Part shown: positions 1 through 8,977 of the stretch, one piece after another
Numbering within the stretch: the stretch's first letter is position 1
Layout: each line of letters opens with the position of its first letter
IMG/VR virus record: IMGVR_UViG_2547132488_000020
From: a virus
Taxonomy: Duplodnaviria > Heunggongvirae > Uroviricota > Caudoviricetes
DNA: 8,977 bases
Reading direction: 5' to 3' (one strand)
Program-made: the position numbers and the translations under genes
The notes under the pieces: generated by a model
What the model saw: the letters and a program-made list of their open reading frames with translations, nothing else
Databases searched by the model: none
What the model was told of the DNA's origin: nothing

Positions 1-16
1 AAGATGTGTAAATATT

Positions 17-62
17 GATTACGCCGGATTATGCCGGGTTATTTGCAAGTATTCAGGGTTAT
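17..62 (+). promoter_or_regulatory. Phased 10-bp direct-repeat element, copy A, upstream of the structural operon
   Basis: Hexamers GATTAC (17-22), GATTAT (27-32), GGTTAT (37-42), weaker AAGTAT (47-52) and GGTTAT (57-62) recur at exactly 10-bp spacing. Positions 17-42 match 4897-4922 at 23 of 26 bases. Role as a protein-binding site is inferred. Confidence 0.4.
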
Positions 63-177: not shown

Positions 178-1062
178 ATGAACGTTTTATCTCAACTTAT
201 CAACGACGCGTTGAACCACCAGGGCGGCCATGTTCGCACTGATGGCAACGGTGATATTACTCAATTTATCCCTATGGAACCGGCAGCAGTTCGCTACCTG
301 TCCATGAATGACGTGCTGACCCCGAAAGGCGGCAAGCAGACTACCTTCAACGCTGTTCTGGCTGAACGTTCGCTGGTGGCACAGGCAGGCGCTGAAATCA
401 TCCGCATTCCTGGCCCGATGACCACGCAACCGACCGGCCAGACTGGTGCAACGACTGGCCGCGAAGTGGCTGACCGCTTCGTTGTCATCCGCCCTGGTGC
501 GTTCGCCAAAGTGGCTGACGGCGAAGAAATCAGCATGAGCGGCAAGCCGTACATGGTTGCAGCATTCGACCACAACACCGCACCGGCTTACGGCGTTGGC
601 TACACCCTGACCCGCCAGCAACTGAAACACGAATTCGCTGACGATACAGTGCTGGAAGCGGTCAACACCGCCATTGAACGCGGCATTGCCGATCTGGCTG
701 ACTTCGTGCTGCTGAACCACCTGGAAACCGCAGCGGAAACGCTGGCCAGCCCGTCATTCACCGCAGTGGCGCAGAAGATTGCAGCCAAAAACCTGCGCTT
801 TGATGAAGTTAAAGCCATTGTTGGCGGTGATTGCACCGGCCTGGAACTGCAAGACGGCGTTCTGCGCGCCTACGGTGTACGCGCTGAAATCAGCGGCCAG
901 ACTTCCAGCACAATCATTGGCGCTTTCGGCAATGCAGCCGTTGCCCTGGATGATGAAATTCGCGTCACCGCCAGACGCGTGCTGAATGGTGCGGTTGAAG
1001 TGGTGGTTTGGGTGAACGCATCCGCACTGGTGCCTGACTCAACTATGTTCTGGAAGGCTTGA
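178..1062 (+). CDS. Putative virion structural protein, possibly HK97-fold major capsid-like (294 aa); function unverified
   Basis: Long ORF with ATG at 178 preceded by GGAG (166-169) at 8-nt spacing. The 94-177 extension in the ORF track starts at TTG and reads as hydrophobic noise. Gly/Ala/Thr/Val-rich, acidic composition with a C-terminal segment IIGAFGNAAVALDDEIRV that resembles the conserved C-terminal strand of HK97-family capsid proteins (recalled from memory, not searched). First gene of an operon ending in a tape-measure gene. Confidence 0.6.
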   Translation: MNVLSQLINDALNHQGGHVRTDGNGDITQFIPMEPAAVRYLSMNDVLTPKGGKQTTFNAVLAERSLVAQAGAEIIRIPGPMTTQPTGQTGATTGREVADRFVVIRPGAFAKVADGEEISMSGKPYMVAAFDHNTAPAYGVGYTLTRQQLKHEFADDTVLEAVNTAIERGIADLADFVLLNHLETAAETLASPSFTAVAQKIAAKNLRFDEVKAIVGGDCTGLELQDGVLRAYGVRAEISGQTSSTIIGAFGNAAVALDDEIRVTARRVLNGAVEVVVWVNASALVPDSTMFWKA

Positions 1063-1064
1063 TC

Positions 1065-1379
1065 ATGTGGTGGGGCAGCAAAAAAGCGGCAGCGGAGCGC
1101 GCTGCCCTGCCGGGTGAAATCCTGGCAGCTATCGAAGGTGTGGCCATGTATGTGCGCCACGGTGATGAAAACACACCGCGCATCGTAGTGCAGCCGGTTG
1201 GCTGGTCAGGATTCATCTACAGCGATGACGCTGCTGAAAAATGGATTCGCAAGGCTTACCCGGAGATTAAGCAGTACCAGATTGAACGCGCCGTGAATTA
1301 CCTCGCTTCCCTGGTGCGCAGTCACTACCGCGAGCAGCGCCCGAAACAGAAGCGCGAAAGCTGGATGAACAGGTACTAA
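1065..1379 (+). CDS. Hypothetical protein (104 aa)
   Basis: ATG at 1065 with GGAAGG (1053-1058) SD at 6-nt spacing, 2 nt after the upstream stop; stop TAA 1377-1379 lies 3 nt before the next start. No motif recognised. Confidence 0.55.
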   Translation: MWWGSKKAAAERAALPGEILAAIEGVAMYVRHGDENTPRIVVQPVGWSGFIYSDDAAEKWIRKAYPEIKQYQIERAVNYLASLVRSHYREQRPKQKRESWMNRY

Positions 1380-1382
1380 GCC

Positions 1383-1547
1383 ATGAAACGACAAGAAACA
1401 CGCCAGCACGTAACGGTACGCCTCGCCCCTGACCTGGTGCGCCAGGTCGAAAGAGAGCAAGCCAAACTGGAACGCAGAACAGGCATCCGCCCTTCACGCA
1501 GCCAGGTGATTGAAAAGTTTCTGAGTAGCGGGCTGAACGGCAAATAA
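1383..1547 (+). CDS. Ribbon-helix-helix (CopG/Arc/MetJ-like) DNA-binding protein (54 aa)
   Basis: Hand translation gives MKRQETRQHVTVRLAPDLVRQVEREQAKLERRTGIRPSRSQVIEKFLSSGLNGK. The pattern beta-strand VTVRL, helix PDLVRQVEREQAK, Gly turn, helix RSQVIEKFL is the classic RHH layout. AGGT SD 8 nt upstream. Below the ORF-track size cutoff. Confidence 0.6.
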   Translation: MKRQETRQHVTVRLAPDLVRQVEREQAKLERRTGIRPSRSQVIEKFLSSGLNGK

Positions 1548-1761
1548 TGGCCAAGAATACAGGTTTCACCGGTTCCCTGTGCCCAAAATAACCGGCCAAA
1601 TTTAACCTTCATCGTTCCTCAGACGATGGATGCTGGAACCAGGTTGGTGGTCATCCTGGACGGTCAAAACCACCACTAATTCCACACCGGTTGCGCCGCA
1701 CCGGTCACCTAAAAGCGCGCACTCACTTAATCATCAACAACTATTGTTAGCGGCCAATACT

Positions 1762-2079
1762 ATGAAAAACCATGACCTGTACGAATCAATGAAAGAAGAA
1801 GCGCGTTTGATCCTTAGCGAAACAAAGCGTTTCCAAACCATTTCAGAGAAAAACCCAATCAGCTACGAAGCAGCCGACCTGCTGGCCAGCCTTCGCAACC
1901 GTTTAAACGCATTCGAACACATGACCGATGAAGCCGGTCGCGCCATGCGCAACGAAGCGGAAAGCCACGCATCGACCCTGGAACGCAAGAAGTGGCAACC
2001 ATCCAGCCGCATCAGTTCCGGTGAACGGGCCAAGCGCCAGGCAGTGAAGCGCGGCGCTATCCTGGTGCGGAGCGCATAA
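1762..2079 (+). CDS. Hypothetical helical, charged protein (105 aa; alternative start 1630 gives 149 aa)
   Basis: ORF in frame with 1630..2079. The N-terminal extension from 1630 is low-complexity and overlaps the CACCGGT motifs, so 1762 is preferred, but neither start has a good SD. Stop TAA 2077-2079 is 2 nt before the next ATG. Confidence 0.5.
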   Translation: MKNHDLYESMKEEARLILSETKRFQTISEKNPISYEAADLLASLRNRLNAFEHMTDEAGRAMRNEAESHASTLERKKWQPSSRISSGERAKRQAVKRGAILVRSA

Positions 2080-2081
2080 GA

Positions 2082-2291
2082 ATGGCAACCAACAACAACA
2101 TTTATGAAGCCGTTCTGAACGTCATCGGCGTAGCCGACAAGATGACGAAGAACAACGCAAGCCAACTGACCGACGCACAAAAGTTGGCGATCAAGAACCT
2201 TAGCGGCGCGATGAAGTCCTGGAAAGGTATCACGTTTGGGATGCGCGACATCACCGCCAACGACAAACCAACAGAAAGCAAAACCGCATAA
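2082..2291 (+). CDS. Hypothetical small protein (69 aa)
   Basis: ATG 2082 tightly following the upstream stop, with GGAG 2066-2069 upstream. Position just before the tape-measure gene is where tail assembly chaperones usually sit, but no sequence evidence supports that role. Confidence 0.5.
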   Translation: MATNNNIYEAVLNVIGVADKMTKNNASQLTDAQKLAIKNLSGAMKSWKGITFGMRDITANDKPTESKTA

Positions 2292-2300
2292 GGGGGCACC

Positions 2301-2507
2301 ATGCTGGACCGTATTCACACAAAACCGGAAGGAACAAACCCCTGGCCTGAACTGGTGGATATGGTCCTGCCCAAAGTTATGGTTTGCGAAACAGCGGAGG
2401 GAATGCAGGCACAGCGTAAACATCGCACCGAATGCGCCCTGCAACTGGCTGCTGCCGCCCTGCGGGCTGCTGGTGAACACACCCTGGCAGAAAATCTACT
2501 TAATTAA
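2301..2507 (+). CDS. Hypothetical small protein (68 aa)
   Basis: ATG 2301 preceded by a strong AGGGGG SD (2291-2296). Same reading frame as 2082..2291, separated only by TAA plus 9 nt. Confidence 0.5.
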   Translation: MLDRIHTKPEGTNPWPELVDMVLPKVMVCETAEGMQAQRKHRTECALQLAAAALRAAGEHTLAENLLN

Positions 2508-2528: not shown

Positions 2529-4820
2529 ATGGCCAATAAGAAGTTGAACGCCACAATCACCATCGGGGGTGCCGTTTCCGGCAGCCTCCGCGGTGCTTTT
2601 GGTACGGTGGAGAAATCCACCATCAAGATTGGCGCAGCGATTAAGCACATGTCGCGCGAACAGCGCCAGCTTAACGACGCTATGAAGCGTTATGGGCAAA
2701 ACTCCACGATGGTTGACCGCCTGCGCGGTCGTTACGAAAACATCGTAGGCCAGGTGGAACGCCTGCGGGCTGCGCAAGAGCGTTTAAACAGAGTGCAACG
2801 CGCCAGCACGGAAAACCTGGCCAAGCAGGCACAGCTACGCGGGCAGATTATCGATACCGTTATGGCTGGTGCTGCCGTTGCCGCACCTATCAAGATTGCC
2901 GCAGATCGTGAACAGCACGCCATTGGCATTGCCAAACAACTGGACGGCGCACGCGATGCAGCGGGCAACCTGACGGCGAAGTTTTGGGAAATGCGCAAGG
3001 CCGTTGCTGACCTTGGGCACGAAATTCCACTGGCCACAAACGACCTGTTTGACATGGCCACAGCAGGGCTGCGCATGGGCGTAGCTGGCGACCAAATCCT
3101 GGGGTTCACCCGGAACGTGGCCAAACTGGCCAGCGCCTTGGAACTGAACCCGGAAGAAGTCGCAGACAATATGGGCAAAATCCAGAATGTTTATCGACTT
3201 ACTCAAGCTGAGCTTGTGCGCCTTGGTGATGCTATTAATTACCTGGACGACCAAAACACCGTTAAAGGCGGTGAGCTTATCGACTTCCTACAGCGTGTTG
3301 GTGGTTCCGCCTCCCTCGCCAAACTCACTGCCAACGATATGGCAGCAATCGGCACCACGCTGATTTCTATGGGTGAAAGCGCAGACACTGCCGCAACGTC
3401 AGTGAAGGCGCTTGTTTCCAAGATGACGCTGGGCAGCAAATCCACGAAATCTGCGCGCGAAGCGTTCAAGGAATTGGGTTATTCCGCGCAGGAAGTGGCG
3501 AAATCCATGCAACTGGATAGCGTCAAGACCATCGAAAACTTTATGAAGACGGTCAACAAGCTGCCAGATTACAAGAAATCCGGCATCCTGGTGTCCATCT
3601 TCGGGCAGGAACACGTTGGTTCTATCTCCAAACTGGCAGCCAACATGGACAAGTTTGGCGAGGCGTTGCACCAGGCTAATGGCGAAATGTCCAAAGGCAG
3701 TGTGCAGAAGGAATTCCAGAACACCGTCAACACCACCAACGCGCAGATGGTTATCCTGCGTAACCGCACCGCTGACGTGGCTGACAATATCGGCACCGTC
3801 CTGCTGCCGACCGTCAACGACGCAGCCAAAGGCATTGGCCGCATCACAACTGTTGTGGCGAACTTCGCGGCGGAACACCCCGGCCTGACCAAAGCCGTGG
3901 TGGGCACAGCGATGGCGCTCACGTCCCTGCGTGTGGCCACCCTGGCGGCGCAGTTCGGCTTCACGTTCCTGAAAGGTGGCGTGTTGCAGATGTCCAGCCT
4001 GTTTGCCCGCATGAACGCATCTGCCGTTCTGGCCAGCACCCGTGGCCTGCCTGCGGTGGCTACCGGCATTCGTGCCGTTGGTGCGGCGTTCATATCCACT
4101 GGCGTGGGTGCTGCCGTAGCTGGCCTGGCGCTGGCAGGTTATCAGATTTACCGCCATTGGGCCGGTGTGAAGGCTTTTTTTGGTGGCGTTGGTGAAGGCA
4201 TCAAATCCGGGTTGGAACCGCTTAGCGATGCCCTGCATCGCCTGTATGAGCGCATGGGGCCATTGAAGCCCGTCATTGATGGCGTGGGCGCTGCGGTTAA
4301 GACGGTTTTCAACTGGTTCACGTCACTGACCGAACCGGTCAAATACAGCGGCGAGGAACTGGATAAGGCCGGTAAAATGGGGATGACGTTCGGTAAGACC
4401 CTGGCGGCTGGCATCGAGCTTGTGACCGCACCGATCACGTTCCTGATTGATAAGATTCTGTGGGTGTCTGACAACATCGGCAACCTGACCAACAAGGCAC
4501 TGGAGTTTAAAAACGCCGTGTCTGATGTTGCTGGTGGTGCGTGGCAGAAAACCAAAGATTTCTTTAGCAATCCGTTCGGTGAAGACGAAAGCAGCCAGCC
4601 AGCAGCGACCGCCGCCCCTGGTGCGTCCTTGCCTTCACCGGCACTGGCTAACCGCACCGGCAACACAACGGTGAACACGAACGACCAGTACACCATCAAC
4701 GTGAAGGCCGAGCCTGGCATGAATGAAGATGCGCTGGCAAATAAGGTGGCGCAGAAGCTGAAACAGCAGCAAGGAATCCGAAATCGTAGCATGATGAATG
4801 ACGGATTAGCAGCACCGTAA
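2529..4820 (+). CDS. Phage tail tape-measure protein-like (763 aa)
   Basis: Uninterrupted 2292-nt ORF. N-terminal Arg/Gln/Glu/Ala-rich helical region; a core (approx. aa 150-330) reading ATNDLFDMATAGLRMGVAGDQILGFTRNVAKLASALELNPEEVADNMGKI ... IGTTLISMGESADTAATSVKALVSKMTLGS that matches my memory of the TP901-family tape-measure core; a long Gly/Ala-rich hydrophobic segment (approx. aa 450-560). Size and layout are typical of TMPs. Not verified by search. Confidence 0.75.
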   Translation: MANKKLNATITIGGAVSGSLRGAFGTVEKSTIKIGAAIKHMSREQRQLNDAMKRYGQNSTMVDRLRGRYENIVGQVERLRAAQERLNRVQRASTENLAKQAQLRGQIIDTVMAGAAVAAPIKIAADREQHAIGIAKQLDGARDAAGNLTAKFWEMRKAVADLGHEIPLATNDLFDMATAGLRMGVAGDQILGFTRNVAKLASALELNPEEVADNMGKIQNVYRLTQAELVRLGDAINYLDDQNTVKGGELIDFLQRVGGSASLAKLTANDMAAIGTTLISMGESADTAATSVKALVSKMTLGSKSTKSAREAFKELGYSAQEVAKSMQLDSVKTIENFMKTVNKLPDYKKSGILVSIFGQEHVGSISKLAANMDKFGEALHQANGEMSKGSVQKEFQNTVNTTNAQMVILRNRTADVADNIGTVLLPTVNDAAKGIGRITTVVANFAAEHPGLTKAVVGTAMALTSLRVATLAAQFGFTFLKGGVLQMSSLFARMNASAVLASTRGLPAVATGIRAVGAAFISTGVGAAVAGLALAGYQIYRHWAGVKAFFGGVGEGIKSGLEPLSDALHRLYERMGPLKPVIDGVGAAVKTVFNWFTSLTEPVKYSGEELDKAGKMGMTFGKTLAAGIELVTAPITFLIDKILWVSDNIGNLTNKALEFKNAVSDVAGGAWQKTKDFFSNPFGEDESSQPAATAAPGASLPSPALANRTGNTTVNTNDQYTINVKAEPGMNEDALANKVAQKLKQQQGIRNRSMMNDGLAAP

Positions 4821-4877: not shown

Positions 4878-4896
4878 TGGTTAGCATTTATTAACC

Positions 4897-4922
4897 GATT
4901 ATGCCGGATTATGTGGGGTTAT
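4897..4922 (+). promoter_or_regulatory. Phased 10-bp direct-repeat element, copy B, upstream of the replication operon
   Basis: GATTATGCCGGATTATGTGGGGTTAT; 23 of 26 bases identical to 17-42, with GATTAT, GATTAT, GGTTAT at 10-bp phasing. Confidence 0.4.
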
Positions 4923-4992
4923 GAGTGACATTTACCTTTTTAAATGCCTGAAATTATTTATGAATTTTCGGCCTATATTTTGGCAAAATAGC

Positions 4993-5020
4993 TTGCAGAA
5001 ACCGGATTGCAGGGTATCAT
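4993..5020 (+). promoter_or_regulatory. Candidate sigma70-type promoter for the replication operon
   Basis: TTGCAG (4993-4998), 16-bp spacer, TATCAT (5015-5020); predicted start near 5027. Sequence match only. Confidence 0.35.
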
Positions 5021-5025
5021 TTGAA

Positions 5026-5050
5026 TTGTGGCGCTTGCACACCGCCACAA
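5026..5050. promoter_or_regulatory. Perfect inverted repeat TTGTGGCG-N9-CGCCACAA (operator-like or RNA hairpin)
   Basis: 8-bp perfect arms 5026-5033 and 5043-5050 with a 9-bp spacer, sitting at the predicted start site of the 4993-5020 promoter. Confidence 0.35.
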
Positions 5051-5051
5051 A

Positions 5052-5120
5052 AAGGAAAACCCCCGGACTGCGCGAACAATCCAGGGGGCTTAATGAAAGT
5101 CTAGGTTAGCGGCCTGACTA
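5052..5120 (-). ncRNA. Candidate small antisense RNA (about 65 nt) with its own promoter and intrinsic terminator
   Basis: On the minus strand: TTGCTA (plus 5150-5155), 17-bp spacer, TAGTAT (plus 5127-5132); no ATG in the transcribed stretch; GC-rich hairpin (plus 5060-5066 pairing with 5081-5088, one bulge) followed on the minus strand by UUUUCCUUUUU (plus 5049-5059). Ends are approximate. Confidence 0.3.
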
Positions 5121-5221: not shown

Positions 5222-5497
5222 ATGAAATTGCACGACCTGGCTGACGCCATCCTGAAAACCAGAACCGTTGAAACTCGCTGTGATGCTGCGTTCAAATTCG
5301 CTGACGCTATGCTGCGCAACGGTTCAAGCATCACCGACACAGCGGAAGCAACCTACCGCATTGTAATGCGCGGGAACAAAGCCTACCGCCTGAACAAAGA
5401 TGACGCCTGGCGCATCACTGCGCACGCCTACGCTGAACAACTGGCGGAACGCGAAGTGGCCACCGTCCTGGCGCAGATTGCCGGGGGTGCGAAATGA
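5222..5497 (+). CDS. Small hypothetical protein, first gene of the replication operon (91 aa)
   Basis: ATG 5222 with GAGGA SD (5210-5214) at 7-nt spacing; stop overlaps the next start as ATGA. Shares the motif [YF]x[LF]N[KR]xDAW and an AGGA[KA] C-terminus with the next ORF. Confidence 0.6.
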   Translation: MKLHDLADAILKTRTVETRCDAAFKFADAMLRNGSSITDTAEATYRIVMRGNKAYRLNKDDAWRITAHAYAEQLAEREVATVLAQIAGGAK

Positions 5498-5727
5498 GCA
5501 TCATCACCCTGCATCGCCTTATGCGCGAACCTGCTACCAGCCAGACGCACGCACAGTGCGTGGCCATCATGCAGGAACTGATTAAGCAGGCCATCCAGTC
5601 TGGCCGCCCGCTGCAATATTCCATCTACCTGGGGCACCTGGCAGAGCACACCCGCTTCCCGTTCAACCGCGTGGACGCCTGGCAAATGGCGCTGGATATG
5701 CAGCGCAAGGCAGGGGGTGCGGCATGA
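5494..5727 (+). CDS. Small hypothetical protein resembling the preceding ORF (77 aa)
   Basis: Start overlaps the upstream stop (ATGA at 5494-5497) and its stop overlaps the primase start (ATGA at 5724-5727). GGGGGTG SD-like sequence sits inside the upstream C-terminus. Confidence 0.6.
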   Translation: MSIITLHRLMREPATSQTHAQCVAIMQELIKQAIQSGRPLQYSIYLGHLAEHTRFPFNRVDAWQMALDMQRKAGGAA

Positions 5728-8012
5728 GTCTGGCACACGAAAAGTACGCCTGGACTGAACAGGACGCAGCCGAGGCGTTGACATTTATTGACCCTGATTG
5801 CGACCACGAAACCTGGACCCGCCTGGCGTTTGCGGTGAAGGCTGAATTTGGTGACGCTGGATTTGATGTCTGGAACGATTGGAGCAAACAGGGCCAGAAG
5901 TACGACAGCAAAGAAGCACGCCAGAAGTGGAAAAGCGCCAAGCGGCACGGCGGAGTAACCATCGGCACGCTGATTGACCTTTCCATGCAGAACGGCTGGA
6001 AGCCGGGCACCAGGAAAGAGCTTTCAATAGACGAGATTCAGGCTCGCGCCGCGAAGCGTGAGGCCGAAGCTAAAGCCGAGGCAGAGCGCAAGCGCCACGA
6101 CCAGGCAGCAGCGGCAGCCCGCGCCCTGGAAATATGGGAAGCATCGGAACCGCTGGAAGGTAACGAACACCCGTATTTGCAGCGCAAAGGTGTGCTGTCT
6201 TTCGGCCTGAACGTTGGCCGCTGGAAGGGATACGAAAATGCACTGCTGGTGCCAATCCGCAACGCTGATGGTTCCCTAACCAGCTTGCAGGCAATCTTCC
6301 CGAACACCAACACTGACCTGGGCCGTGACCGTGACTACCTGAAAGACGGCCAGAAGCACGGTTGTTTCCACCTGATTGGCGGTAAGCCTGTTGGCGAAAA
6401 GCCGGTGATTGTGGTTTGCGAGGGTTACGCCACTGGTGCCAGCATCCACCAGGCAACAGGCCATTACGTGGCCGTGGCTTTCGACAGGAGCAACCTTAAA
6501 GCTGTGGCGCAGGCCATGCGCAAGATGGTTGGCCGCGCCACAATAATTGTGGCCGCTGATAACGACCAGTGGGAGAAGGGCAACCCCGGAAAAACCGATG
6601 CAGGTAAGGCAGCGCAGGCGGTTGGCGGCCTGGTGGCTGTGCCTGAATTCGATGACCTGACCACGAAGCCGACCGACTTCAACGACCTGCATAAATTGCA
6701 GGGAATTGATGCCGTGCGCAGCCAGGTGCAGGCTGTTATTCCAGCACCGGAGGAAAAGCGGTTCCTGCCACTGGATTCTAATGTGGTGCCGTTTGACTTC
6801 CCCTACACGTCAGACAGGATGCAGCCGCTTAACAACTGGGAAAACCTTGATTGGCTGTTAAGTCAGTACGGCATTACCGCTCGTTACAACGAGATCAGCA
6901 AGGAAGTTGAAATCAACGTGCCTGGTAAAAGCTATGGCGGTGACGGTGATGACGATAGCGCGCTGATTGAAGTGACCAGCCTGTGCGCCCGTAACCGGAT
7001 GCCAAAAGCTGACGTGGCTGACTACATCAAACTGATTGGCAAAGAGAACCGTTACAACCCGGTCAAAGACTTCATTCTGTCCAGGCCGTGGGATGGTTGC
7101 AGCCGGTTTGCTGACCTGTTAGCCACCATTGAAACGCCAGCAGATTACAGCCGTGACCTGATGGCGCTACTGATGAAACGCTGGCTGGTGTCGGCAGTGG
7201 CGGCGACATTTGAGGAACGCGGGTTCTGGTCCAAAGGCATCCTGGTGTTCCAGGGGGAGCAATCCCTTGGGAAAACGTCATGGATTAAGGCGCTGCTGCC
7301 GGAGGAAGAACAGGAAAAGCTATTGCTGGTTGGTGCTGCGATGGACCCTAGCAACAAAGACAGCGTATCGCAGGCAATTGGCCGCTGGATTGTGGAGCTT
7401 GGCGAACTGGACACCACATTCCGCAAGTCTGACATATCGGACCTGAAAAACTTCATCAGCCGCCCACATGACGTGCTGCGCAAGCCGTATGATCGCCGTG
7501 AATCGAAGTATAAGCGCAGGACTGTGTTCTTCGCATCAGTGAACCCGAAACACTTCCTGCATGACGAAACCGGCAACGTGCGTTTCTGGACCATTCCGGT
7601 GACCGGGCTGAACTATAATCACGGCATCGACGTGCAGCAGTTATGGGCCGAAGTGCATCACTGGTACACGAAAGGCGAACGCTGGTGGCTGGAACGCGAG
7701 GAAGAACAGCGCCTGGAAGCGGTGAACGCTGACCACGCGCAGGTTGACCCGCTCGAGGAAATGATTTTAGCCCGCTTCCGCTGGGATGAAACCCGCATGG
7801 AGGTTTACACCGAAATGTCAGCCGCAGAAGTGCTGATAGCGATTGGCTACGACAAGCCAACCAAATCGCAGGCCACATCATGCGGCAACATCCTGCGCAA
7901 GCTGACTGGCAAGGAGCCGCGCAGAACAGCCAAAGGGCGGTTCTACCCGATACCGCCAAAAGAATTACCAAAGCCACAAAGCTATTACGACGAAACCCAA
8001 GGCCCATTTTGA
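5724..8012 (+). CDS. Replicative primase-helicase, P4 alpha-type (Toprim primase plus P-loop NTPase; 762 aa)
   Basis: Toprim motifs VVCEGYATG (Glu233, nt 6417-6425) and AADNDQW (Asp279/Asp281, nt 6558-6566); Walker A GEQSLGKTS (aa 511-519, nt 7254-7280); Walker B-like IVELGELD; Trp-rich N-terminal domain ending GVTIGTLIDL. Architecture matches the phage/plasmid primase P4 family from memory. Confidence 0.9.
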   Translation: MSLAHEKYAWTEQDAAEALTFIDPDCDHETWTRLAFAVKAEFGDAGFDVWNDWSKQGQKYDSKEARQKWKSAKRHGGVTIGTLIDLSMQNGWKPGTRKELSIDEIQARAAKREAEAKAEAERKRHDQAAAAARALEIWEASEPLEGNEHPYLQRKGVLSFGLNVGRWKGYENALLVPIRNADGSLTSLQAIFPNTNTDLGRDRDYLKDGQKHGCFHLIGGKPVGEKPVIVVCEGYATGASIHQATGHYVAVAFDRSNLKAVAQAMRKMVGRATIIVAADNDQWEKGNPGKTDAGKAAQAVGGLVAVPEFDDLTTKPTDFNDLHKLQGIDAVRSQVQAVIPAPEEKRFLPLDSNVVPFDFPYTSDRMQPLNNWENLDWLLSQYGITARYNEISKEVEINVPGKSYGGDGDDDSALIEVTSLCARNRMPKADVADYIKLIGKENRYNPVKDFILSRPWDGCSRFADLLATIETPADYSRDLMALLMKRWLVSAVAATFEERGFWSKGILVFQGEQSLGKTSWIKALLPEEEQEKLLLVGAAMDPSNKDSVSQAIGRWIVELGELDTTFRKSDISDLKNFISRPHDVLRKPYDRRESKYKRRTVFFASVNPKHFLHDETGNVRFWTIPVTGLNYNHGIDVQQLWAEVHHWYTKGERWWLEREEEQRLEAVNADHAQVDPLEEMILARFRWDETRMEVYTEMSAAEVLIAIGYDKPTKSQATSCGNILRKLTGKEPRRTAKGRFYPIPPKELPKPQSYYDETQGPF

Positions 8013-8022
8013 GGAATAAATC

Positions 8023-8250
8023 ATGAGTTATCGCGCGATCATCAGTACATTTGACCCTGAAAACGCATCAACTGTTAACACTGAATTATTCCAGACCTTC
8101 GCAACCGCACCAGAAGCGGAAGCACATGGACGGAAATCACTTGCAGAGATTCAGCAGGAATTCTTCCAGATGGGTTATGCGTTCATCGTCAGCTACTTCA
8201 TCGTTGAAGTACCAGCGGCGGAAATCATCCAGTTTATTGCCCGCACGTAA
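8023..8250 (+). CDS. Hypothetical small protein (75 aa) at the end of the replication operon
   Basis: ATG 8023 with GAGGA SD 7 nt upstream, 10 nt after the primase stop; followed by a terminator. No motif recognised. Confidence 0.55.
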   Translation: MSYRAIISTFDPENASTVNTELFQTFATAPEAEAHGRKSLAEIQQEFFQMGYAFIVSYFIVEVPAAEIIQFIART

Positions 8251-8273
8251 CATCACAACAATTGTTGTTCACC

Positions 8274-8300
8274 GCCCTGGCACCTGCCGGGGCTTTTTTA
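8274..8300 (+). terminator. Intrinsic terminator closing the replication operon
   Basis: Stem 8274-8281 pairing with 8286-8293 (8 bp including one GU), 4-nt loop, then T6 (8294-8299). Confidence 0.6.
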
Positions 8301-8311
8301 TTGTCTGGCTG

Positions 8312-8572
8312 TGACACCTAGGTGTCATCCTGTCTTAAGGTGTCACAGTCGTAAGTGTCTGTTTTTGCTTATTAATGACACCTATGACACCTATGACACC
8401 TATTTTGAAAGATTTATTAGACCGTAAAAAACCGCCGCGAAATAACGGTTACCCTTTTTTTGAAAACAGGTGTCAAGGTGTCACTACCAACCCATGCAAT
8501 CAGCATAAATCGCATATGAATCATGCACTTATGTGTGTGACACCTATGGTGACACCTCAACCCAAGGTGTCA
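8312..8572. repeat. Iteron array: 11 copies of heptamer TGACACC/GGTGTCA flanking an AT-rich stretch; putative replication origin
   Basis: Forward copies at 8312, 8376, 8385, 8394, 8538, 8550; reverse copies at 8321, 8339, 8469, 8477, 8566. Includes a perfect 16-bp palindrome (8312-8327) and three tandem TGACACCTA 9-mers (8376-8402). AT-rich segment 8401-8466 with A6 and T7 runs. Confidence 0.7.
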
Positions 8573-8977
8573 TTCTTTCAGGGCATAGCTGCGCACCGTT
8601 ATGGCGTTATGAATCCACTCATTTGTAACAACGCTTTTTCACATCTAACCAAAGCGGCAGCCGGAATAGGTACAACATACAGAAGTATGATGTAACTACA
8701 GGAAACGAGCCTTTCAGCCTTGTTTTGCGTTCAAACAGTAGCTGCTCAGTAAACAGCCAGAACGTTGCACATATCGCAACAATAAGCCTGTGTGAATACG
8801 GGCTGAAAGCGCGCGGAATATGTCAGATTATGCGCCGTTCGCCTGCCAGCACCTTCCTGGTGCTTCTTTCTGCCTGCAAACCCACCATATTTAACATAAT
8901 GGACCTTGCGCGCACCGACTGGACGCCTGCCTGCCTCAAAAATCGAAGGTACTTCCGAGGGGGCACAGCCTGCGGGG

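What the first reader, a model, noticed from the sequence alone, without database searches (positions are those of the whole stretch)
1065..1547. RHH DNA-binding protein inside a structural operon, tightly coupled to an upstream 104-aa gene
A 54-aa ribbon-helix-helix protein is unusual within a structural-type operon. With its 3-nt coupled upstream partner it could be a reverse-order toxin-antitoxin-like pair, an operon autoregulator or a packaging/DNA-binding accessory protein.
Basis: partly seen in the sequence, partly recalled or inferred. Interest (0 to 1): 0.45.

Follow-up and report, generated by a model that had tools for sequence, protein, structure and literature searches.

The report
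RHH protein in phage-satellite capsid operon
The two flagged small genes are real and conserved: a 104-aa protein of unknown fold and a 54-aa ribbon-helix-helix DNA-binding protein sit directly after the capsid gene of a ~9-kb phage satellite that carries the cos packaging site of Jilinvirus-type phages, and they are not a toxin-antitoxin pair.

Summary
ORFs 1065-1379 (104 aa) and 1383-1547 (54 aa) lie 3 nt apart and are under purifying selection (dN/dS 0.1-0.35). The same order, capsid protein, ~104-aa protein, ~54-aa protein, recurs in elements from E. coli, Salmonella, Serratia, Pseudomonas and metagenomes.

The window is a small satellite. Its last ~40 nt are half of a cos site that is 97% identical to the cos of Jilinvirus (Iiscvirinae) myophages. 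It encodes a capsid-protein homologue, a tape measure 44% identical to the helper's and a primase 61% identical, but no terminase, portal or integrase.

The toxin-antitoxin reading is not supported. The 104-aa protein matches no toxin family or fold and always follows the capsid gene. In a sister lineage it stays 86% identical while the RHH gene is replaced by a 40% allele fused to a satellite small-terminase gene.

The function remains inferred. The most likely role is a late-expressed DNA-binding regulator (~0.4). A cos/packaging accessory role is a close rival (~0.3).

The parts
8936..8977 (.). Left half of the cos site (…AAGGTACTTCCGAGGGGGCACAGCCTGCGGGG). The window ends inside the cohesive-end region. 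The right half and about 161 bp that follow it in all relatives are absent from the window.
   Evidence: The 73-bp non-coding match is 92-97% identical to Jilinvirus phages ep3, ECO1230-10, PT1 and HeidiAbel. It lies between the lysis genes and terS in ep3 and at the physical ends of the ECOO78 and Arya records. The 161-bp gap is shown.
13..42 (+). Three tandem 10-bp repeats (TATTGATTAC GCCGGATTAT GCCGGGTTAT) in the leader of the capsid operon. This is a candidate protein-binding site, not shown to be the RHH operator.
   Evidence: 0 matches expected by chance. Present in L001, L002 and L018-L021. Absent from L017, which has the same RHH type.
178..1062 (+). 294-aa satellite capsid-protein homologue, with no protease or scaffold domain.
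   Evidence: one source names relative P0106 'phage major capsid protein', and P0128/P0130 are S78 protease fusions with 51-52% identity. No match in 50,697 phage records. dN/dS 0.06-0.27.
1065..1379 (+). 104-aa protein of unknown fold ('p104'), the constant partner of the capsid gene. It has a conserved N-terminal helix, a beta hairpin, two C-terminal helices and a basic tail ending in W-x-N-R-Y.
1383..1547 (+). 54-aa ribbon-helix-helix protein. Predicted strand at about residues 8-14 (RQHVTVRL), helix A at 16-33, a G34-x3-S38 turn and helix B at 39-51.
1608..1676 (+). Conserved core of the 214-nt spacer between the RHH gene and the next gene, with two short hairpins (CATCGT/ACGATG and CCAGG/CCTGG). 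In sister elements a small-terminase gene and a 73-aa gene are inserted between the RHH gene and this core.
   Evidence: The fold z-score of -1.27 is not significant.
1762..2507 (+). Three small genes (105, 69 and 68 aa) that precede the tape measure gene. Function unknown.
2529..4820 (+). 763-aa tail tape measure protein, 44% identical over its full length to the tape measure of Jilinvirus HeidiAbel.
4894..4923 (+). Second set of three 10-bp repeats (ACCGATTATG CCGGATTATG TGGGGTTATG), downstream of the tape measure gene and about 300 bp upstream of the replication operon.
   Evidence: L020 has a diverged copy at the equivalent place.
5222..8250 (+). Replication module: 91-aa, 77-aa, 762-aa PriCT_2-Toprim-VapE primase (61% identical to the HeidiAbel primase) and 75-aa genes.
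8306..8580 (.). Array of TGACACCT iterons in both orientations, probably the replication origin.
   Evidence: L001 has an equivalent array and L012 has a different iteron.

Best explanation
ORF 1383-1547 encodes a small dimeric RHH DNA-binding protein of the CopG/Arc type. It is a core, satellite-specific gene of a family of ~9-kb cos-type satellites of Iiscvirinae (Jilinvirus-like) myophages. It is the third gene of the conserved late module cos - capsid protein - p104 - RHH. It is co-transcribed, and probably translationally coupled, with the satellite's capsid gene.

Shown: the gene is real. The fold is RHH. The strand carries conserved polar and basic residues (Q8, T11, R13) that alternate with hydrophobic ones. 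The glycine/serine turn before helix B is conserved even in 37-45% relatives. No helper phage or any other sequenced phage has a homologue.

Inferred: the protein binds specific DNA as a dimer or a higher oligomer. It acts as a late-expressed transcriptional regulator that represses or tunes satellite operons and/or helper late (capsid) genes once the satellite's own capsid operon is on. This would resemble SvtR, Arc and CopG, or functionally P4 Delta and PLE CapR.

The 104-aa protein belongs functionally with the capsid protein, perhaps as a scaffold or size-determining assembly partner (a guess). It is not a toxin neutralised by the RHH.
For: RHH fold:
- The AF2 model has pLDDT 83, with an extended N-terminus and helices at 16-33 and 39-51.
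- Sub-threshold sequence hits agree. RHH_1 scores E 0.008 for the Serratia orthologue and E 4.7e-4 (20.4 vs 20.5 bits) for remote relative P0144. RHH_3, NikA-like and CB_ParB_C match other relatives. phrog_4738 'transcriptional repressor' scores E 0.04.

DNA-binding signature: Q8, T11 and R13 are invariant. R13, E23, G34 and S38 are nearly invariant across relatives of only 37-45% identity.

Real, selected gene.

Core satellite gene, always in the capsid module. It is absent from 50,697 phage records.

Satellite identity:
- The cos site is shared with Jilinvirus.
- The tape measure is 44% and the primase 61% identical to HeidiAbel.
- There is no terminase or portal.
- Integrated copies lie next to fis with integrase and AlpA.

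Regulatory context:
- Sister elements carry, in the capsid-operon leader, the motif GACAAACCCCAAGAAGA. This motif occurs four times on the + strand of the HeidiAbel late-gene region: twice in intergenic spacers (one just after a terminator-like hairpin) and twice inside genes.
- The operon is therefore probably switched on with the helper's late genes, which would make the RHH a late product (inference).

Prior (established knowledge): most stand-alone RHH proteins of about 50 aa are repressors. SvtR, a virus-encoded RHH, represses a structural gene.
Against: - No operator has been identified. The 10-bp tandem repeats upstream of both operons in the window are absent from L017, which has the same RHH type.
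- The gene is third in its operon, not first as in typical autoregulators.
- In the sister lineage the RHH stop overlaps the start of a satellite small-terminase gene. Such tight coupling often goes with proteins that act together, which favours a packaging role.
- Sequence profiles do not reach any curated RHH threshold.
- The dimer and the DNA binding are inferred, not computed.
Confidence: 0.4

Rival explanations
1. Packaging accessory. The RHH binds satellite DNA at or near cos and helps terminase (the helper's TerS/TerL, or the satellite's own TerS in the sister lineage) choose or cut satellite DNA. It would be a functional analogue of Rpp, of the TerS DNA-binding domain, of IHF at cosB, or of the RHH relaxosome accessory proteins TraY, TraM and NikA.
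For: - The gene lies in the head/packaging module that starts at cos.
- It is probably a late product (inferred from the helper-like motif in sister-element leaders).
- In 17 E. coli genomes and in L012/L013 the RHH allele is immediately followed by a satellite TerS gene, with stop and start overlapping (phrog_57 E 4e-26, 42% identical to ep3 TerS). That lineage also has a different sequence directly to the right of cosN.
- In the Salmonella helper-embedded element, an RHH-like 82-aa gene ends directly at cos.
- There is a precedent: E. coli PICIs share cosN with the helper but carry their own cosB-binding factor (PMC6739421).
Against: - Elements of the window's type keep the helper-like ~35 bp to the right of cosN, so helper TerS may suffice, as for P4.
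- The co-variation of the RHH allele with the cos flank can be explained by hitch-hiking with the adjacent TerS gene.
- No RHH is known in any terminase system (own knowledge).
- Rpp is a 139-aa winged-helix protein, not an RHH.
Confidence: 0.3
2. Protein-binding factor. The RHH dimer acts mainly through protein contacts, for example by inhibiting a helper protein or acting as an assembly cofactor with p104 and the capsid protein, rather than through DNA.
For: - Tight coupling with p104 and the capsid gene in nearly all elements.
- It is satellite-specific with no phage homologue.
- Many satellite interference factors are small proteins that bind helper proteins (established knowledge: Ppi, PtiA, Sid).
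Against: - The residues expected to contact DNA (strand Q8/T11/R13 and the G34/S38 turn) are the best conserved ones.
- The RHH allele can be exchanged without a matching change in p104 or the capsid protein.
Confidence: 0.12
3. Plasmid-maintenance regulator. The RHH would be a CopG-like copy-number repressor or a ParG/omega-like centromere binder for the episomal ~9-kb form.
For: - Most contigs that carry this exact capsid gene are 5-10 kb, and the ~9-kb ones fetched stand alone without an integrase. One relative is a closed 8,933-bp circular 'plasmid'.
- CopG, ParG and omega are RHH proteins.
- The Pseudomonas orthologue has a weak CB_ParB_C hit.
Against: - The gene is equally conserved in chromosomally integrated copies.
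- It stays with the capsid module while replication modules and iterons are swapped.
- No partition ATPase is present.
Confidence: 0.05
4. Reverse-order type II toxin-antitoxin pair, with p104 as toxin and the RHH as antitoxin.
Against: - p104 is found only directly behind the satellite capsid gene, at the same 2-nt spacing.
- In L012 p104 is 86% identical but the RHH only 40%.
- In the Salmonella element a p104 homologue has no adjacent RHH.
- At 54 aa the RHH has no toxin-binding C-terminal extension.
Confidence: 0.03

Closest known systems
CopG/Arc/Mnt-type stand-alone ribbon-helix-helix repressors (Pfam RHH_1, clan CL0057), including viral SvtR of SIRV1
   Different: No curated profile reaches threshold. 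Helix A is about 4-6 residues longer than in CopG. The family has only 18 close 90%-identity clusters, plus seven remote small relatives at E < 1e-3 among 1.8 billion representative proteins. The gene sits third in a capsid operon rather than first in its own operon. The target DNA is unknown.
Rpp (redirecting phage packaging) of E. coli cos PICIs (PMC6739421)
   Same: A small satellite-encoded DNA-binding protein in a cos satellite that shares cosN with its helper. This is a possible functional analogy.
   Different: Rpp is a 139-aa winged-helix protein with a coiled-coil dimerisation domain that pairs with helper TerS. The protein here is a 54-aa RHH, so it is not a family member. No interaction with TerS has been shown.
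P4 sid-delta-psu operon and PLE CapR
   Same: In both, a satellite operon or programme that remodels the capsid also encodes a small DNA-binding regulator acting on helper late or capsid genes and on satellite promoters. This is the regulatory analogy.
   Different: Delta is a zinc-finger activator and CapR is a Bro-N-related repressor, and neither is an RHH. P4 and PLE do not encode their own capsid protein.
SaPIbov5 Ccm and capsid-forming PICIs; fis-integrating Gram-negative PICIs and helper-embedded satellites (bioRxiv 10.1101/2022.07.18.500453)
   Same: These are satellites that encode a capsid-protein homologue. They integrate next to fis using integrase plus AlpA, or inside the helper capsid gene (L004). 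They have a 'late zone' of captured helper late genes.
   Different: The paper sections read here (abstract, attachment sites, gene content) do not describe the RHH/p104 pair, the Jilinvirus cos site or the integrase-less ~9-kb form. cf-PICIs also carry terminase, portal and connector genes, which are absent here.
RHH relaxosome accessory proteins (TraM, TraY, NikA, PcfF)
   Different: They act at oriT with relaxases, not at cos with terminases. TraM has an additional tetramerisation domain. There is no sequence similarity.

Membership tests
Ribbon-helix-helix superfamily | Strand-helix-helix topology in about 45 residues | tested here: met
Ribbon-helix-helix superfamily | N-terminal strand with alternating hydrophobic (core) and polar/basic (DNA-facing) residues | tested here: met
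   R7-Q8-H9-V10-T11-V12-R13-L14. Q8, T11 and R13 are invariant in close homologues, and R13 is nearly invariant in remote ones.
Ribbon-helix-helix superfamily | Glycine-containing turn with Ser/Thr/Asn capping helix B | tested here: met
   G34 and S38 are nearly invariant across relatives of 37-45% identity. The turn (G-I-R-P-S) is longer than the classical G-x-S/T/N.
Ribbon-helix-helix superfamily | Score above the curated threshold of an RHH sequence family (Pfam RHH_1 and similar) | tested here: not met
   The window protein has no Pfam hit at E <= 1. The Serratia orthologue scores 16.5 bits and P0144 20.4 bits against a cut-off of 20.5. hhalign to CopG and Arc gives the right register but only 1-4% probability.
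Ribbon-helix-helix superfamily | Intertwined homodimer with a two-stranded antiparallel sheet that binds the DNA major groove | not testable with these tools
   Only monomer prediction is available.
Type II toxin-antitoxin pair | Partner protein belongs to, or folds like, a known toxin family | tested here: not met
Type II toxin-antitoxin pair | Cognate pair inherited and diverging together, and mobile between genomic contexts | tested here: not met
   In L012 p104 is 86% but the RHH 40% identical, with RHH dS saturated. A p104 homologue occurs without an adjacent RHH in L004. All family members follow the satellite capsid gene.
Type II toxin-antitoxin pair | Toxicity of one partner relieved by the other | not testable with these tools
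   This needs expression experiments.
Rpp / small terminase (winged-helix cosB binders) | Nu1-like winged helix-turn-helix DNA-binding domain; phrog_57-type TerS homology | tested here: not met
   The RHH has a different fold. Rpp is described.
cos-type phage satellite (P4-like / PICI-like) | Carries the helper's cos site | tested here: met
   73 bp are 92-97% identical to the Jilinvirus cos region, located upstream of terS in ep3 and at the record ends of ECOO78 and Arya.
cos-type phage satellite (P4-like / PICI-like) | Lacks a full virion gene set (no large terminase, portal or tail structure) but has its own replication module | tested here: met
   Only a capsid-protein homologue, a tape measure and a primase are recognisable.
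cos-type phage satellite (P4-like / PICI-like) | Integrase plus AlpA with a defined att site | tested here: inconclusive
   Both are absent from the window and from the ~9-kb contigs fetched. They are present next to fis in L001, L017, L018 and L006 with the same late module.
cos-type phage satellite (P4-like / PICI-like) | Helper-dependent induction, packaging and transfer | not testable with these tools
   This needs infection experiments with a Jilinvirus such as HeidiAbel (Bas97).

The most novel reading that the evidence does not exclude
The RHH is a new kind of satellite piracy factor. One version is a cos-proximal DNA-binding adaptor that redirects a GpA-type terminase to satellite DNA; this would be the first RHH in a packaging-initiation complex, working alone with helper TerS in the window's lineage and with a satellite TerS in the sister lineage. 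The other version is a CapR-like repressor that silences the helper's protease-capsid fusion gene so that small capsids are built from the satellite's own capsid protein with p104 as its scaffold.
Probability: 0.25. Interest if true: 0.7.

Novelty: new member of a known kind. Interest (0 to 1): 0.45.

Why it matters
The pair alone is a modest finding: a new, narrow RHH family plus an orphan 104-aa protein. Its value comes from the context uncovered here.

The two genes, together with a capsid-protein homologue, form the conserved and satellite-specific core of a compact satellite family of about 9 kb. This family carries the cos site of Iiscvirinae/Jilinvirus myophages. It also carries its own tape measure and primase, related to those of the helper. 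It exists both integrated next to fis and as an integrase-less episome.

The core genes have no counterpart in any sequenced phage. They are therefore the most likely place to find the mechanism by which this satellite builds or fills its own particles. A cultivable candidate helper exists (HeidiAbel, Bas97, in the BASEL collection), so the question can be tested directly.

Tried and rejected
- Toxin-antitoxin pair: rejected (see rivals).
- p104 as a miniature small terminase or Nu1/Rpp-like winged helix. A by-eye motif resemblance (…FIYSDDAAEKWI… versus …EWEYDTAQVAAWL…) was not supported by hhalign against ep3 TerS, L012 TerS or lambda Nu1.
- p104 as a homologue of the helper genes that flank the helper capsid gene (ep3 gp29, gp32): no similarity.
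- The 10-bp tandem repeats (13-42, 4894-4923) as the RHH operator. Co-variation looked promising in L012 (different RHH, no repeats). It failed in L017 (same RHH type, no repeats).
- The 1548-1761 spacer as a structured RNA: no Rfam family, fold z-score -1.27, and only two short conserved hairpins.
- Scans of GTDB genome contigs with the RHH and capsid alignments found nothing useful.
- Literature searches for this satellite, for RHH in satellites, or for the RefSeq protein accessions found no description of the pair.
- The weak CRISPR-DR11 (13-49) and AgvB (8246-8299) Rfam hits are far below gathering scores and were taken as chance.

Full report
**1. The observation**

The window carries a tightly packed run of genes on the + strand:
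- 178-1062 (294 aa);
- 1065-1379 (104 aa, here called p104);
- 1383-1547 (54 aa);
- after a 214-nt spacer, 1762-2079, 2082-2291 and 2301-2507;
- 2529-4820 (763 aa).

p104 starts 2 nt after the stop of the 294-aa gene, behind a GGAAGG Shine-Dalgarno sequence. The 54-aa ORF starts 3 nt after the p104 stop. The coordinates and the '3-nt coupling' in the finding are therefore correct.

Chance ORFs of this size are common, with 68 ORFs of 40 aa or more in the window. The reality of the genes rests on comparative evidence:
- Pairwise dN/dS over six elements is 0.10-0.31 for p104 and 0.16-0.35 for the 54-aa gene, with synonymous sites saturated in the distant pairs.
- The same three genes in the same order recur in many independent elements, described below.

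**2. The fold of the 54-aa protein**

Curated profiles give nothing above threshold:
- no Pfam hit at E <= 1;
- phrog_4738 'transcriptional repressor' at E 0.04;
- NCBIfam YlcI_YnfO_N at E 0.025.

The family is narrow. A search of 5.8 billion proteins found 18 clusters, all at least 67% identical. An exhaustive HMM search of 1.84 billion representatives added only seven small remote relatives of 52-85 aa.

An AlphaFold2 model built on the alignment is confident (pLDDT 83). It shows an extended N-terminal segment followed by helices at 16-33 and 39-51.

The sequence pattern fits the fold:
- The strand R7-Q8-H9-V10-T11-V12-R13-L14 alternates polar or basic residues with hydrophobic ones. Q8, T11 and R13 are invariant.
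- G34 and S38, in the turn that caps helix B, are nearly invariant even in relatives of 37-45% identity.

Sub-threshold hits of relatives point the same way: RHH_1 at E 0.008 (Serratia orthologue) and E 4.7e-4 (P0144), plus RHH_3, NikA-like and CB_ParB_C.

Dimerisation and DNA binding remain inferences.

**3. The 104-aa protein**

**4. What the window is**

The 763-aa protein is a tape measure protein (PF10145 7.6e-38; phrog_28 1.8e-105). The 762-aa protein at 5724-8012 is a PriCT_2-Toprim-VapE primase.

The 294-aa protein has no family hit, but its relatives identify it. One source names relative P0106 'phage major capsid protein', and P0128 and P0130 are fusions of an HK97-type S78 prohead protease to this domain.

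Relatives of the whole element:
- The window is 96.5% identical, over the 69% of its length that aligns, to an 8,933-bp closed circular E. coli 'plasmid', pM121-3.
- Its left half is 91-97% identical to chromosomal islands in 65 E. coli genomes. In the copies examined these lie between yhdJ and fis and add an integrase, an AlpA-type regulator and a VapE primase.
- Most contigs that carry the exact capsid gene are 5-10 kb. Those fetched are ~9.3-9.6 kb, lack an integrase and combine the late module with different replication modules.

The helper:
- A GC-rich non-coding element upstream of the capsid gene is conserved in elements from E. coli, Serratia, Salmonella and Pseudomonas.
- Seventy-three bp of it are 92-97% identical to a non-coding stretch of Jilinvirus (Iiscvirinae) myophages: ep3, ECO1230-10, PT1, HeidiAbel and ECOO78. 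A shorter stretch also matches Enterobacter phage Arya.
- In ep3 this stretch lies between the lysis genes and terS. In the ECOO78 and Arya records it forms the physical genome ends. It is therefore the cos site.
- The window's last ~40 nt are the left half of this site. All relatives have 161 bp between the window's end and its start that the window lacks.
- The satellite tape measure is 44% and its primase 61% identical, over full length, to those of Jilinvirus HeidiAbel.
- The capsid-like protein, p104 and the RHH have no counterpart in any of 50,697 phage records.
- No ep3-like terminase region was found at megablast sensitivity in 5,426 complete E. coli genomes. Only the 73-bp cos region matched, in 48 genomes; the listed hits lie in genomes that carry the satellite, at the satellite locus.

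The window is therefore a cos-type satellite of Jilinvirus-like phages. It is related to the 'fis PICIs' and helper-embedded satellites catalogued by Tommasini et al.. The sections of that paper read here do not describe the gene pair, the cos relationship or the episomal form.

**5. Comparative anatomy of the pair**

The order capsid protein - p104 - RHH, with spacers of 2-3 nt or short overlaps, is found in:
- Serratia islands next to fis that lack a tape measure (L006/L007);
- a 10-kb Pseudomonas contig (L003; capsid protein 40%, p104 31%, RHH 33% identical);
- metagenome contigs in which the RHH is only 43-45% identical (L010, L011, L014, L015);
- an E. coli-related contig (L016).

Two variants are informative.

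(a) L012 type, present in 17 E. coli genomes. The capsid protein is 89% and p104 86% identical to the window, but the RHH is only 40% identical, with saturated dS. Its stop codon overlaps the start of a 159-aa gene that is a small terminase (phrog_57 4e-26, 42% identical to ep3 TerS). A 73-aa gene follows. The same lineage has a different sequence immediately to the right of cosN.

(b) A Salmonella satellite inserted in the capsid gene of a Jilinvirus-like prophage (L004). It has a protease-capsid fusion and a 155-aa p104 homologue directly downstream. An RHH-like 82-aa gene (RHH_1 E 0.026; hhalign 35%) lies upstream and ends exactly at cos.

p104 therefore travels with the capsid gene, whereas the RHH can be exchanged or moved independently. 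That is the opposite of what a cognate toxin-antitoxin pair would show.

**6. Possible DNA targets**

The window has three tandem 10-bp repeats (GCCGGATTAT-like) at 13-42, about 135 bp upstream of the capsid gene. A second triplet lies at 4894-4923, upstream of the replication operon. None is expected by chance. The first set is conserved in all elements with this leader.

However, L017 encodes the same RHH type (89-91% identical, identical strand core QHVTVR) and has a leader without these repeats. The repeats therefore cannot be an obligatory operator.

The L017, L012 and Serratia leaders instead carry GACAAACCCCAAGAAGA. This motif occurs four times on the + strand of the HeidiAbel late-gene region: twice in intergenic spacers, one just after a terminator-like hairpin, and twice inside genes. 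This suggests that the satellite capsid operon is wired into the helper's late transcription programme. If so, the RHH is a late protein; this step is inferred.

The spacer after the RHH gene contains a core of about 70 nt that is conserved across all three E. coli lineages, with two short hairpins. It has no significant folding energy and no Rfam match.

**7. Interpretation**

Shown:
- The gene is real and the fold is RHH.
- It is a core, satellite-specific member of the capsid/packaging module.
- It is not a partner of a toxin.

Inferred:
- It binds DNA as a dimer.

Two mechanisms remain.

The first, and my best estimate (about 0.4), is a transcriptional regulator. This rests on the strong prior that stand-alone ~50-aa RHH proteins are repressors. 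It also rests on analogy with SvtR and, functionally, with P4 Delta and PLE CapR. In this reading the protein is made with the satellite capsid protein and tunes satellite operons and/or helper late genes.

The second (about 0.3) is a cos or packaging accessory factor. It is favoured by four things:
- the gene's place in the head/packaging module;
- its probable late expression;
- its stop/start overlap with a satellite TerS gene in the sister lineage;
- the Salmonella RHH-like gene that abuts cos.

It is weakened because the window's lineage keeps the helper-like right flank of cosN, and because the allele/cos-flank co-variation can be explained by hitch-hiking.

Lesser rivals are a protein-binding role (0.12), plasmid maintenance (0.05) and a toxin-antitoxin pair (0.03).

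p104 is probably an assembly partner of the satellite capsid protein. That protein, at 294 aa, lacks the protease and scaffold part present in the helper's 682-aa fusion. This assignment is a guess.

**8. Comparison and novelty**

The protein works like, and folds like, a CopG/Arc-type RHH. It fails the sequence thresholds of the curated families and forms its own narrow family, so it is a new member of a known kind.

It is not an Rpp or TerS family member, because the fold is different. The satellite context is a new variant among capsid-encoding, fis-integrating satellites. That context is what makes the pair worth experimental follow-up, especially as a cultivable Jilinvirus is available in the BASEL collection.

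Noticed in passing
window 8936-8977 (and L001 11799-11871): The window ends inside a cos site that is 92-97% identical to that of Jilinvirus phages. All relatives have 161 bp between the window's last and first bases that the window lacks, so the window is either cut or ends at a repeat or cos breakpoint.
   Followed up: yes
window 2529-4820 and 5724-8012: The satellite carries its own tape measure protein (44% identical to HeidiAbel's) and a primase 61% identical to the helper's. Serratia relatives (L006) have the capsid/p104/RHH core but no tape measure. I know of no other satellite that encodes a tape measure, and why this one does is unexplained.
   Followed up: partly
L012 3399-3878, L013 440-775, 17 E. 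coli genomes: A sister lineage encodes its own small terminase (phrog_57) directly after a divergent RHH allele. It has a different sequence to the right of cosN, which suggests a switch in packaging specificity.
   Followed up: partly
L017 6261, L012 1952, L006 9848 and 9929; HeidiAbel L022 2426, 5165, 9467, 13923: The 17-nt motif GACAAACCCCAAGAAGA lies in the capsid-operon leaders of several satellites. It also occurs four times on the + strand of the helper's late-gene region, twice in intergenic spacers and twice inside genes. It is probably a late-promoter or activator site that the satellites copy. The window's own leader lacks it.
   Followed up: partly
window 8306-8580: A dense array of TGACACCT iterons in both orientations, plus an inverted-repeat scaffold, lies downstream of the primase operon and is probably the replication origin. 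L012 and L004 have different iterons (CGCCACCACT, AAGTGCGGCA).
   Followed up: no
L004/L005 3280-14542: A Salmonella relative is integrated inside the protease-capsid fusion gene of a Jilinvirus-like prophage (a helper-embedded satellite). It encodes its own protease-capsid fusion, a 155-aa p104 homologue and a 521-aa tape-measure-like protein.
   Followed up: partly
window 13-42 and 4894-4923: Two sets of three tandem 10-bp repeats (CCGGATTATG-like) lie upstream of the late and the replication operons. The protein that binds them is unknown, and they are not obligatorily linked to the RHH type.
   Followed up: partly
window 1608-1676: A core of about 70 nt in the spacer after the RHH gene is conserved in all three E. 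coli lineages and forms two short hairpins. The spacer is also the site where the TerS and 73-aa genes are inserted in the sister lineage.
   Followed up: partly
P0136 (89 aa): In one database entry the first 33 residues of the RHH are fused to the C-terminal end of the tape measure protein. This indicates a ~3-kb deletion derivative of the late module.
   Followed up: no
L009 9119-9640 (phage ep3): The annotated ep3 small terminase (105 aa) appears to be truncated at the N-terminus. The reading frame upstream encodes a Nu1-like helix-turn-helix, and the L012 and HeidiAbel TerS proteins (159-174 aa) align to it.
   Followed up: partly
window 5060-5087 (- strand) and 4921-5109: A strong terminator-like hairpin lies on the minus strand, in the 400-nt gene-free region between the tape measure gene and the replication operon. 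It could mark a small antisense or regulatory RNA.
   Followed up: no
E. coli genome collection: About 65 of 5,426 complete E. coli genomes carry the satellite. None carries an ep3-like terminase region at megablast sensitivity, so the satellites mostly reside without a resident helper.
   Followed up: partly
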